64,000 bases of DNA, taken from positions 96,001 through 160,000 of the forward strand of contig JAAFKI010000112.1 of the NCBI GenBank assembly GCA_021399345.1, read 5' to 3'. The translations under genes were made by a program, and so were the position numbers. Within the stretch, counting starts at the first letter, position 1. Each line of letters begins with the position of its first letter. Shown piece by piece: positions 14,590 to 17,299 of the stretch. This DNA is from Candidatus Heimdallarchaeota archaeon (lineage in GTDB: Archaea; Asgardarchaeota; Heimdallarchaeia; Heimdallarchaeales; Heimdallarchaeaceae). The notes under the pieces are model-generated. The model was not told where the DNA came from and ran no database searches. It saw only the letters and a list, made by a program, of their open reading frames with translations.

Positions 14590-14736
14590 TTACCCTGCAA
14601 GAGGGTATTGCTGAAAAGCTAAACTTAAACGAGCTTTAGATCTGAGGGCGCGACGAGCTTTCTTGAGCTGCTTTAACTCCTTTTGGAGTCCCCTAACCTT
14701 TTGATCCAACAAGTTTGAAACTTCATCATGGTTCAT
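14590..14736 (-). CDS. 48-aa basic coiled-coil microprotein (operon A, first gene), not in the ORF track
   Basis: MNHDEVSNLLDQKVRGLQKELKQLKKARRALRSKARLSLAFQQYPLAG; AGGTGA RBS; paralog of 16644..16790. Confidence 0.85.
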   Translation of the reverse strand: MNHDEVSNLLDQKVRGLQKELKQLKKARRALRSKARLSLAFQQYPLAG

Positions 14737-14763: not shown

Positions 14764-14977
14764 ATGTAGGACTTGTTGCGACATCATATATAAGGGGCTT
14801 TGAGTAGGAAAATGTTGTCACAAAGAAAAAGGCTAATGTCGGACTATGTGCGACATCTTAAACATATGTGTAAAGGCTTGCACACACGCAATTCACCTAT
14901 TTAGAAACGTTAAACAACAGTTAAAGGGCTTTTCAGATTTGCGGTAAAAATTACCTATAATATTAATAAGATGTCGC
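14764..14977 (-). promoter_or_regulatory. Operon A promoter with type-A operators ATGT(C/A)GGA-N5-TGCGACAT
   Basis: atgtaggacttgttgcgacat 14764-14784 next to TATA 14786-14793; atgtcggactatgtgcgacat 14836-14856; half-site gatgtcgc 14970-14977. Confidence 0.7.
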
Positions 14978-16643: not shown

Positions 16644-16790
16644 TTACCCGTAAATCAGGTATTTCCTGATTGGAAATCTAGAACGAGCTTTTGCTCTTCT
16701 AGTGCGACGAGCTCTTTTGAGCTTATTCAACTCCTTGCGGAGTGCCTTAATCTTTCGGTCCAAAATTATACTTACTTCTTGTTTATACAT
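16644..16790 (-). CDS. 48-aa highly basic coiled-coil microprotein (operon B), not in the ORF track
   Basis: MYKQEVSIILDRKIKALRKELNKLKRARRTRRAKARSRFPIRKYLIYG; GAGGTG RBS; same length and DNA-level similarity to 14590..14736. Confidence 0.85.
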   Translation of the reverse strand: MYKQEVSIILDRKIKALRKELNKLKRARRTRRAKARSRFPIRKYLIYG

Positions 16791-16801
16791 TTCTTTACAC
16801 C

Positions 16802-16990
16802 TCAAATGTTTGCAAATCTCCTCAGGTTCAGGTTAGAGTAGAAGCTAATGGTTGCAGTCAGGTATTGCTCATAGATATCCAAGTTCTTGTCTGAATATCG
16901 GTTGGATAGAGTTTTCATGAGTTTATTGAGATCCTCGTAAAGTCTTCGAACCTCGGGATCCAGCAGTTTTTTTATTTCGTTTTTGTTCAT
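16802..16990 (-). CDS. 62-aa helical microprotein (operon B, first gene), distant paralog of the 48-aa proteins
   Basis: MNKNEIKKLLDPEVRRLYEDLNKL aligns with MNHDEVSNLLDQKVRGLQKELKQL; AGGTG RBS. Confidence 0.75.
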   Translation of the reverse strand: MNKNEIKKLLDPEVRRLYEDLNKLMKTLSNRYSDKNLDIYEQYLTATISFYSNLNLRRFANI

Positions 16991-17016
16991 TTTTTTACAC
17001 CTTAGGATTGGTTCTA

Positions 17017-17271
17017 TTACAGCATTGTGCAGTAACCTATTTAAGCATCGTTGTGCAGTAATAAATTACCGCATTTTGCAGTAATAAAAGAAATATTATT
17101 AAAAACGACAAAATGACCATATAGGCGATATTTATGCTTATGAACTCGTATAACCCCTTCAATAAATGCCATAAATAGGGGCAAATATTTCCGCTTAAGT
17201 GATTTTATTTGCAGTAATAATATGACTTTGGGAAATTATTACCTTGAGATATACATATATATATTACTGCA
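17017..17271. promoter_or_regulatory. Divergent promoter region with five TGCAGTAA(TA) type-B operator elements
   Basis: TTACaGCA-ttg-TGCAGTAA 17017-17035 next to TATA 17038-17044; TGCAGTAATA at 17054; TTACcGCA-ttt-TGCAGTAA from 17066; TGCAGTAATA at 17210; inverted TATTACTGCA 17262-17271 just after the TATA run of paralog 5. Confidence 0.8.
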
Positions 17272-17299
17272 AACAATAATATAGATAGGAGGTAAAATC

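What the first reader, a model, noticed from the sequence alone, without database searches (positions are those of the whole stretch)
17017..17271. Type-B operator array: five TGCAGTAA elements between operon B and divergent paralog 5
Two near-palindromes TTAC(a/c)GCA-N3-TGCAGTAA plus three single TGCAGTAATA sites lie within 255 bp. Sites flank the operon B TATA box, and one follows the paralog 5 TATA run. The architecture matches promoter A, but the half-site (TGCAGTAA vs TGCGACAT) and spacer (3 vs 5) differ. Inference: after duplication the two cassettes evolved insulated, orthogonal regulator-operator pairs.
Basis: partly seen in the sequence, partly recalled or inferred. Interest (0 to 1): 0.75.

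Follow-up and report, generated by a model that had tools for sequence, protein, structure and literature searches.

The report
Conserved operator array of orphan zinc regulator
Five copies of the 8-letter word TGCAGTAA lie in one 310-bp gap between two divergent genes of a Heimdall-group Asgard archaeon. They are strongly conserved protein-binding sites on both promoters, most likely read by the small orphan zinc protein encoded next door. Binding itself has not been tested.

Summary
There are five exact TGCAGTAA copies at 17028, 17054, 17077 and 17210 (+) and 17264 (-). Two of them form TTACNGCA-N3-TGCAGTAA palindromes.

- **Uniqueness:** this is the only cluster of three or more copies in the 3.27-Mb genome.
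- **Conservation:** in orthologous gaps of 7 genomes, 37 of 40 site columns are invariant, against 33% for the rest of the gap. Five metagenome contigs show the same array.
- **Co-occurrence:** every complete array found lies next to a B-clade copy of the CxxC/HxC "paralog 5" gene.
- **Layout:** one palindrome sits between the TATA box and the inferred start of operon B, and a pair sits just upstream of that TATA box. One site follows the paralog-5 TATA run directly, and one lies about 35 bp upstream of it.
- **Concerted switching:** sister cassettes in the genus keep the same five positions with other half-sites (ATGTAGGA/TCCGACAT, ATGTAAT/ATGACAT). The half-site type follows the paralog clade.

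Best reading (0.6): a dimer of paralog 5 binds these sites, repressing operon B and its own gene. The homodimer model passes its controls. The protein has no known DNA-binding fold, so the binder is inferred, not shown.

Type B arose from ATGTAAT-type ancestors, not from the tandem neighbour A. The scan noted the same zinc-regulator and microprotein system in another genome. I class it as a new variant of a known kind, of moderate interest.

The parts
16802..16990 (-). First gene of operon B (62-aa helical microprotein). Its promoter is one target of the array.
   Evidence: ORF. Orthologs are 74-97% identical in 6 other genomes and always divergent from the paralog-5 ortholog.
17017..17035 (.). 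O1, the palindrome TTACAGCA-TTG-TGCAGTAA. It lies between the operon B TATA box and the inferred transcription start, which is repressor geometry.
   Evidence: 13 of its 16 half-site columns are invariant in 7 genomes, and the variation is symmetric (TGCAG[T/C]AA).
17038..17044 (-). Inferred TATA box of operon B (TTAAATA on the minus strand, within the conserved block CCTATTTAA).
   Evidence: Mean pairwise identity of the block is 0.97. It lies about 50 bp upstream of the ATG at 16990. It has not been mapped experimentally.
17054..17063 (+). O2, a single site TGCAGTAATA just upstream of the TATA/BRE of operon B.
   Evidence: Invariant in all 12 aligned sequences.
17066..17086 (.). O3, the palindrome TTACCGCA-TTT-TGCAGTAATA. 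Its right half starts 23 bp after O2.
   Evidence: Conserved as TT[A/G]CCGC[A/T]-N3-T[G/A]CAG[T/C]AA. The left half, ATTACCGC, is also present in the G001 cassette that uses a different half-site, so it may be older than type B.
17106..17114 (.). Conserved block CGACAAAAT of unknown role.
   Evidence: Nearly invariant in 11 of 12 aligned gaps and flanked by poorly conserved sequence.
17180..17193 (.). GGCAAATATTTCCG, a copy of the quasi-palindrome GGNAA-N-TTNCC that recurs in all cassette types.
   Evidence: It always lies just upstream of the fourth operator position.
17210..17219 (+). O4, a single site TGCAGTAATA about 35 bp upstream of the paralog-5 TATA run.
   Evidence: Invariant in all 12 sequences. 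The O3-to-O4 spacing is held at 132-134 bp although the sequence between them is only 30-50% identical.
17230..17243 (.). GGGAAATTATTACC, the second copy of the type-independent GGNAA-N-TTNCC element, just upstream of the paralog-5 TATA run.
   Evidence: Mean pairwise identity 0.90. Equivalent elements occur in other cassette types.
17246..17263 (+). Conserved GAGATATACATATATATA block holding the inferred TATA box of paralog 5.
   Evidence: Mean pairwise identity 0.95. It lies about 40 bp upstream of the TTG start, which has an AGGAGG ribosome-binding site.
17262..17271 (-). O5, TGCAGTAATA on the minus strand, directly after the paralog-5 TATA run (autoregulation geometry).
   Evidence: TTACTGCA is invariant in all 12 sequences.
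17300..17698 (+). Paralog 5, a 132-aa orphan CxxC...HxC zinc protein and the proposed cognate regulator.
   Evidence: Model pLDDT is 81, showing four helices plus a zinc ribbon. The homodimer model passes its controls.

Best explanation
The five TGCAGTAA elements are operators of a dedicated, single-locus transcription switch. A symmetric dimer of the adjacent orphan zinc protein (paralog 5, 17300-17698) recognises the half-site TGCNG[T/C]AA, best as TGCAGTAATA.

At the operon B promoter, O1 covers the stretch between the TATA box and the transcription start and would block RNA polymerase recruitment. O2 and O3, just upstream of the TATA/BRE, would add cooperative occupancy. At its own promoter, O5 directly follows the TATA run and gives negative autoregulation, with O4 as an upstream helper.

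The fixed 132-134-bp distance between the two groups of sites is compatible with looping between them.

Shown here: the sites exist, are unique in the genome, are under purifying selection, always travel with the B-clade paralog, and all switched together when the paralog clade changed.

Inferred: that paralog 5 is the binder, that it represses, and that looping occurs.
For: 1. **Cluster uniqueness.**
2. **Phylogenetic footprint.** 37 of 40 site columns are invariant against 33% of the remaining gap, and 0 of 20000 random site sets match this. The footprint holds in 12 sequences, including a 70%-identity relative.
3. **Symmetric degeneracy.** T/C at half-site position 6 is mirrored by A/G at position 3 of the left halves, as expected for a two-fold symmetric binder.
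4. **Co-occurrence.** The 19-mer made of O2 plus its linker occurs once in each of 7 of 25 genus genomes. These are exactly the genomes with a B-clade paralog and an intact gap. In metagenomes, 5 of 5 contigs with an array carry the paralog, and 17 lone hits carry neither.
5. **Concerted switching.** Cassettes of other paralog clades keep the same five positions but with ATGTAGGA/TCCGACAT or ATGTAAT/ATGACAT. The operator type follows the paralog tree. Cassettes beside the same FAD-oxidase gene carry different types in different species. A factor that differs between cassettes within one genome must be encoded in the cassette.
6. **Other family members.** The other paralog promoters examined mostly have a short inverted or repeated element starting ATGT directly after their TATA-like box.
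7. **Homodimer prediction supports pairing.** The score is 0.52 against 0.24 for the best of 3 controls. That mark was reached by 20 of 30 proteins solved as pairs of one chain and by 1 of 23 solved as single chains. The runs agree in 100% of contacts and the partner pLDDT is at least 86. The interface uses the family-invariant DAPL..GL..Y segment.
8. **Half-site spacing.** Half-site centres are 11 bp apart, one helical turn.
9. **Known archaeal precedent.** Archaeal repressors act either by occluding TBP/TFB binding or by preventing RNA polymerase recruitment (Mdr1, LrpA, PhrA, Lrs14, TrmB, NrpR; review PMC5569661). Which named repressor uses which geometry is from my own knowledge, not from the passage read.
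Against: - Paralog 5 has no Pfam, PDB-sequence or structural match to any DNA-binding fold, and no HTH was recognised.
- Only three residues are B-clade-specific (H43, L83, I88). They do not mark an obvious recognition helix.
- Linkage alone would make any cassette gene covary with the gap, so the basic microproteins of the operon remain candidate binders.
- The TATA boxes and transcription starts are inferred, not mapped. The direction of regulation is unknown.
- The left half of O3 (ATTACCGC) also exists in a non-B cassette, so not every element called type B is type-specific.
Confidence: 0.6

Rival explanations
1. The sites are true operators, but they are read by another cassette-encoded protein. 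The candidate is the 48-aa zipper peptide with an arginine-rich tail (16644-16790, minus strand), alone or with the 62-aa helical peptide. Paralog 5 would then have a different role.
For: The microprotein genes are as tightly linked to the gap as the paralog is, and they diverge between cassette types. The 48-aa peptides carry a heptad region followed by a basic tail. All gaps with a multi-site array face a microprotein operon.
Against: The basic tails of the A and B peptides are similar (LK[R/K]ARR..R.KAR), whereas the half-sites differ at most positions. Eight-bp half-sites with centres 11 bp apart fit a globular dimer better than a zipper fork. That last point rests on general knowledge of bZIP sites. 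The other paralog promoters examined, including copies elsewhere on the contig, mostly carry an ATGT-type element right after a TATA-like box; their neighbouring genes were not checked for microprotein genes. The paralog is predicted to form a symmetric dimer.
Confidence: 0.15
2. The sites are operators for an unlinked transcription factor encoded elsewhere in the genome.
For: No DNA-binding fold is recognisable in paralog 5. A second conserved element, GGNAA-N-TTNCC, is shared by all cassette types and must be read by something that is not type-specific.
Against: The array is the only TGCAGTAA cluster in the genome, so such a factor would have a single target. Presence of the array matches presence of the B-clade paralog exactly. 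All five sites switched together with the paralog clade, while tandem cassettes in one genome keep different words.
Confidence: 0.08
3. The repeats act at the RNA level, as hairpins formed by the inverted copies in a leader or an antisense transcript, not as protein-binding DNA sites.
For: The minus-strand gap folds better than shuffles (-68 kcal/mol, z = -3.6), pairing O4 with O5 and the O1-O3 copies with each other.
Against: That fold is the trivial result of inverted repeats. The sites are invariant and show no compensatory change, and their flanks do not covary. O4 and O5 lie on opposite sides of the paralog-5 TATA run, and O2 and O3 lie upstream of the operon B TATA box, so they would not share a transcript. 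There is no Rfam match.
Confidence: 0.04
4. The repeats are replication iterons or origin-recognition boxes, or the ends of a mobile element.
For: O1R, O2 and O3R are direct repeats spaced 26 and 23 bp apart in AT-rich DNA. Cumulative GC skew has a local minimum near 18 kb.
Against: The three Orc1/Cdc6 genes lie on other contigs. The skew turn coincides with divergent gene orientation. The gap is syntenic between the same two genes in 12 sequences, with no transposase. Paralogous cassettes have the same layout with other words.
Confidence: 0.02

Closest known systems
Archaeal repressors that occlude TBP/TFB or block RNA polymerase recruitment (Archaeoglobus Mdr1, Pyrococcus LrpA and PhrA, Lrs14, TrmB, NrpR; review PMC5569661)
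   Same: [quoted passage not shown] Further sites abut the TATA/BRE. The regulator gene sits next to its target and carries a site on its own promoter.
   Different: The proposed regulator has none of the HTH, wHTH or RHH folds of those proteins. It is an orphan four-helix plus zinc-ribbon protein restricted to one Heimdall-group genus. Binding is untested.
Divergent-promoter switches of bacteria and phages with multiple operators and swappable specificity (tetR/tetA; lambdoid immunity regions OR1-OR3)
   Same: One gap serves two divergent promoters through several copies of one half-site. Related cassettes in the same or sister genomes use non-cross-matching operator words, so the pairs are orthogonal.
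   Different: This is an archaeal TATA-type promoter, an unrelated protein, and a chromosomal syntenic locus without phage genes. Orthogonality is shown only at sequence level.
Type-A cassette of the same window (ATGTAGGAC-N3-TTGCGACAT sites at 14764-14856, with paralog 4)
   Same: The position plan relative to the TATA boxes is the same, and so are the protein family and the type of target operon.
   Different: The half-site word differs (TGCGACAT/ATGTAGGA against TGCAGTAA) and the spacer is 5 against 3. Paralog 4 lies in tandem upstream of its operon, not divergent from it. The two paralog clades are only about 50% identical and separated deep in the tree.

Membership tests
Archaeal autoregulated repressor-operator switch (promoter occlusion type) | Operator overlaps or directly follows the TATA box or transcription start of the target | tested here: met
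   O1 (17017-17035) abuts the conserved TTAAATA box. O5 abuts the TATA run of paralog 5. The TATA boxes and starts are inferred, not mapped.
Archaeal autoregulated repressor-operator switch (promoter occlusion type) | Sites under purifying selection relative to the surrounding intergenic DNA | tested here: met
   37 of 40 site columns are invariant against 33% elsewhere. 0 of 20000 random site sets reach this. The result holds in 12 sequences.
Archaeal autoregulated repressor-operator switch (promoter occlusion type) | Dyad symmetry matched by a dimeric regulator | tested here: met
   There are two palindromes with half-site centres 11 bp apart. The homodimer model scores 0.52 against 0.24 for the best control. 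That mark was reached by 20 of 30 true pairs and 1 of 23 single chains. Contact agreement is 100% and partner pLDDT is at least 86. This is a prediction only.
Archaeal autoregulated repressor-operator switch (promoter occlusion type) | Regulator binds the operator sequence-specifically | not testable with these tools
   No protein-DNA assay or co-folding tool was available.
Archaeal autoregulated repressor-operator switch (promoter occlusion type) | Regulator carries a known DNA-binding fold (HTH, wHTH, RHH, AbrB, zinc ribbon of the TFB type) | tested here: inconclusive
   No Pfam hit. No PDB sequence hit. Foldseek E-values exceed 1 and the best VIA Z-score is 5.0, to helical bundles only. A zinc ribbon is present but has no named relative.
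Replication iterons or archaeal origin (ORB elements) | Initiator gene (orc1/cdc6 or rep) adjacent to the repeats | tested here: not met
   The Cdc6_C matches are on contigs C199, C194 and C177, not on C41. The neighbours are microprotein genes, the paralog and an FAD oxidase.
IS or transposon terminal repeats | Inverted ends flanking a transposase, with patchy occurrence between genomes | tested here: not met
   The gap lies between the same two genes in 12 sequences and holds no transposase ORF.
RNA polymerase subunit B C-terminal clamp domain (Pfam RNA_pol_Rpb2_7), as a possible origin of the paralog's zinc ribbon | Profile-level sequence homology | tested here: inconclusive
   The Atlas feature score is 0.90 with 156 shared features, which is a lead only. 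hhalign gives probability 9% against the genome's own RpoB C-terminus and 2.4% against a 21-sequence profile.

The most novel reading that the evidence does not exclude
The CxxC...HxC proteins are a previously undescribed, non-HTH class of sequence-specific archaeal transcription factor confined to one Heimdall-group genus. Their DNA specificity and all five cognate operators have been re-programmed together at genes in the same chromosomal position: TGCAGTAA in some species, ATGTAAT or ATGTCGGA in others. This yields orthogonal switches within one genome, analogous to phage immunity-region diversification but occurring in the chromosome of a close relative of eukaryotes.
Probability: 0.45. 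Interest if true: 0.7.

Novelty: new variant of a known kind. Interest (0 to 1): 0.58.

Why it matters
Almost nothing is known experimentally about gene-specific regulation in Asgard archaea. [quoted passage not shown]

This locus offers a compact, directly testable case. It has a 310-bp control region with five invariant sites and a 132-aa candidate regulator of unknown fold. It also has natural specificity variants (types A, B, C/D) that predict which protein should bind which DNA.

If confirmed, it would add a new DNA-binding family and a natural set of orthogonal archaeal switches. It would also give a handle on the still-unknown function of the microprotein and membrane-peptide operons under its control.

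If paralog 5 does not bind, the sites remain a well-defined bait for finding the real factor.

Tried and rejected
Orthologous loci came from the genome search and the DNA search instead.
- **Fold identity of paralog 5.** Foldseek against the PDB found nothing below E = 1. The VIA wide search gave a best Z of 5.0, to designed and other generic helical bundles. Pfam at E up to 10 gave only scattered chance families. The PDB sequence profile search found nothing below E = 0.5.
- **Rpb2_7 lead.** The lead from the protein atlas was followed by fetching RpoB C-termini and running hhalign, which gave probabilities of 9% and 2.4%. It is not supported.
- **HA-domain lead.** The weak likeness of the C-terminal helices to helicase-associated (HA) domain repeats rests on one 752-aa protein. 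No paralog hits PF03457 directly. It remains a lead only.
- **Specificity residues.** Only H43, L83 and I88 are B-specific, and no recognition helix emerged.
- **Expression and start mapping.** No RNA holder was listed for this stretch. The contigs laid from runs labelled RNA-like cover parts of operon B and of paralog 5 but cannot show starts or strands. No conclusion was drawn.
- **Known RNAs.** Rfam gave no match.
- **RNA-structure reading.** Rejected, see the rival explanations.
- **Other TGCAGTAA pairs in the genome and the best mismatch palindromes.** All lie inside ORFs and are treated as chance.
- **Seventeen lone metagenome hits of the 19-mer.** They have neither an array nor the paralog and are treated as chance.
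- **Literature.** One search timed out. Another found nothing on this family.
- **Half-site homology.** Aligning type B with ATGTAAT half-sites on a shared GTAAT core reverses the half-site orientation relative to the dyad, so positional homology is left open.

Full report
**Context.** The window is contig C41:96001-160000 of a 3.27-Mb, 33% GC assembly. Public sources name homologues of the flanking gene as Heimdallarchaeota proteins. The finding lies in the 309-bp gap 16991-17299. On the minus strand is the 62-aa first gene of a microprotein operon, "operon B" (16802-16990). On the plus strand is a 132-aa gene with a TTG start and an AGGAGG ribosome-binding site, "paralog 5" (17300-17698).

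**Observation.** Exact TGCAGTAA occurs at 17028, 17054, 17077 and 17210 (+) and at 17264 (-). Only two other copies exist in the 64 kb, and shuffles give 2.1 per window. Two copies have an inverted partner with one mismatch and a 3-bp spacer, at 17017-17035 and 17066-17084. Four copies extend to TGCAGTAATA. In the whole genome there are 185 copies, and this is the only place with three or more in 300 bp. The pattern TTACNGCA-N3-TGCNGTAA matches perfectly only here. Every other close pair or near-match lies inside a long ORF.

**Selection on the sites.** The paralog family occurs in 24 of 24 sampled genomes of the genus and in 0 of 16 genomes from other genera of the order. Only 24 representatives were found among 1.84 billion proteins.

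Seven genomes carry a paralog-5 ortholog (about 75-89% identical) divergent from a 62-aa gene ortholog. In the alignment of these gaps, 37 of the 40 columns of the five words are invariant, against 33% of the other 269 columns. None of 20000 random sets of five 8-column windows reaches that.

Stretches between the sites are only 30-50% identical. The variation that does occur is symmetric: TGCAG[T/C]AA on right halves and TT[A/G]C... on left halves. That pattern fits a two-fold symmetric reader.

A metagenome scan for the 19-mer made of O2 plus its linker gave 22 contigs. Five have the whole array, and all five have the paralog directly downstream, one at only 70% identity. The other 17 are single hits with neither feature. 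In the 12-sequence alignment, O2, O4 and O5 remain invariant. Some of these sequences are near-duplicates, so the count overstates independence.

In the genus, the 19-mer occurs exactly once in each of 7 of 25 genomes. These are the genomes with a B-clade paralog and an intact gap. An eighth genome, G011, has the paralog and O5, but unrelated sequence begins just upstream of O5, about 200 bp from the end of the fetched locus.

**Promoter geometry (inferred).** The block CCTATTTAA (17036-17044; TTAAATA on the minus strand) has 0.97 pairwise identity and lies about 50 bp before the ATG at 16990.
- O1 fills the space between this TATA box and the expected transcription start.
- O2 and O3 lie immediately on the other side of it.
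- For paralog 5, the conserved GAGATATACATATATATA block (17246-17263) is directly followed by O5.
- O4 lies about 35 bp upstream of that block, preceded by a GGCA...TTTCCG element.

The spacings O1R-O2-O3R (26 and 23 bp), O3R-O4 (132-134 bp) and O4-O5 (54-56 bp) are kept across genomes, even though the 133-bp spacer sequence drifts. According to the review read here, archaeal repressors act either by occluding TBP/TFB binding or by preventing RNA polymerase recruitment (PMC5569661). I did not map any transcription start.

**Concerted switching across cassettes.** Gaps of more distant family members have the same five-position plan but different words.
- ATGTAGGA-N5-TCCGACAT type in G005, G012, G017, G022 and others.
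- ATGTAAT/ATGACAT or TGTAATC-N5-GATTACA type in G001, G003, G007, G015, G021 and G023.
- ATGTAGGAC/TGCGACAT type in the window's own cassette A.

On a protein tree, the operator word follows the paralog clade. The B clade is nested among ATGTAAT/ATGACAT-type relatives. Its long-branch sister from G004 has degenerate B-like sites. The FAD-linked oxidase gene that follows paralog 5 also follows ATGTCGGA-type and C-type paralogs in other species. Cassettes in the same chromosomal position therefore carry different operator words in different species.

Linkage alone would make any gap motif follow the adjacent gene. The informative point is that all five separated sites changed to the same new word, while a tandem cassette in the same genome kept another word. 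Gap B has no type-A half-site even with one mismatch.

**Which protein.** Paralog 5 has no Pfam family and no PDB relative by sequence.
- The AlphaFold model is confident (pLDDT 81, above 90 for most of residues 1-110). It shows four helices with an inserted three-stranded zinc ribbon that carries the invariant C52, C55, H69 and C71, followed by a disordered lysine-rich tail.
- It has no convincing structural neighbour.
- A two-copy prediction supports a symmetric homodimer. The score is 0.52 against 0.24 for the best of three controls. That mark was reached by 20 of 30 proteins solved as pairs of one chain and 1 of 23 solved as single chains. The runs agree in 100% of contacts and the partner pLDDT is at least 86. 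The interface is formed by the family-invariant segment 23-43 plus residues 54 and 74-80. This is a model, not a measurement.
- The other family promoters examined mostly have a short ATGT-type element right after a TATA-like box; whether those copies lack a nearby microprotein operon was not checked.

The main rival binder is the 48-aa zipper peptide with an arginine-rich tail. Its basic tail is similar in operons A and B although the operators differ.

Two leads to known domains failed or stayed weak. The first was RNA polymerase subunit B domain 7. The second was helicase-associated domain repeats.

**Other rivals.**
- **Origin or iterons:** the Orc1/Cdc6 genes are on other contigs, and the GC-skew turn matches divergent gene orientation.
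- **IS ends:** the locus is syntenic and has no transposase.
- **RNA structure:** the fold z-score of -3.6 is what inverted repeats give by themselves. There is no covariation, no shared transcript is expected, and there is no Rfam hit.

**Verdict.** The array is real, unique in its genome, selected, and a cassette-specific operator set; I hold that part at about 0.85-0.9. That paralog 5 is the binder and acts as an autorepressor and a repressor of operon B is the best-supported mechanism (0.6), but it is inferred.

It agrees with this reading, but I did not test it.

Noticed in passing
window 17180-17193 and 17230-17243; also 14938-14952; L017, L011, L019, L021 gaps: A second quasi-palindrome, GGNAA-N3-5-TTNCC (for example GGCAAATATTTCCG, GGGAAATTATTACC, GGTAAAAATTACC, GGCAATTTTTGCC), recurs in every cassette type whatever the half-site word. 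It always sits just upstream of the fourth operator position and of the paralog TATA box. It looks like a site for a type-independent factor, or for an invariant part of the family.
   Followed up: partly
window 17106-17114: The block CGACAAAAT is nearly invariant in 11 of 12 orthologous gaps, in the middle of otherwise poorly conserved spacer. Its role is unknown.
   Followed up: no
window 17085-17209 and orthologous gaps (L002-L008): The distance between O3 and O4 is held at 132-134 bp in all genomes, although the sequence between them is only 30-50% identical. This suggests a constraint on length or helical phase, possibly looping.
   Followed up: partly
L015, L017, L018, L020, L022 compared with window 17300-19728: The FAD-linked oxidase / EtfB / EtfA-ferredoxin operon downstream of paralog 5 is also downstream of paralogs from other clades, with other operator words, in other species. 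Cassettes in the same position therefore differ in specificity type.
   Followed up: partly
L005 (G011:C15:12800-14920), about 40 bp upstream of the paralog start: In G011 the B-clade paralog and O5 are present, but the sequence just upstream of O5, including the TATA run, is replaced by unrelated DNA about 200 bp from the end of the fetched locus. This could be a rearrangement, an insertion or an assembly join.
   Followed up: no
L010 (G004:C62:44162-47491): The long-branch sister of the B clade has one exact TGCAGTAATA after a GGAAATTATTACC element, and a degenerate TTACTGCT-AAT-TGCAACAA. It lacks the full five-site plan. It may be a decaying or transitional cassette.
   Followed up: partly
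P0047 (752-aa metagenome protein): The family profile weakly matches seven helicase-associated (PF03457) repeats of this protein through the motif W...FF/L..E..KALQ.LGV.P of the paralog's last two helices.
   Followed up: partly
window 16644-16805 (-) and 14590-14736 (-): The two 48-aa basic peptides of operons B and A share the tail LK[R/K]ARR..R.KAR. The 62-aa first gene of operon B gives no BLASTP alignment with the first gene of operon A. The gene order at the head of the two operons therefore differs.
   Followed up: partly
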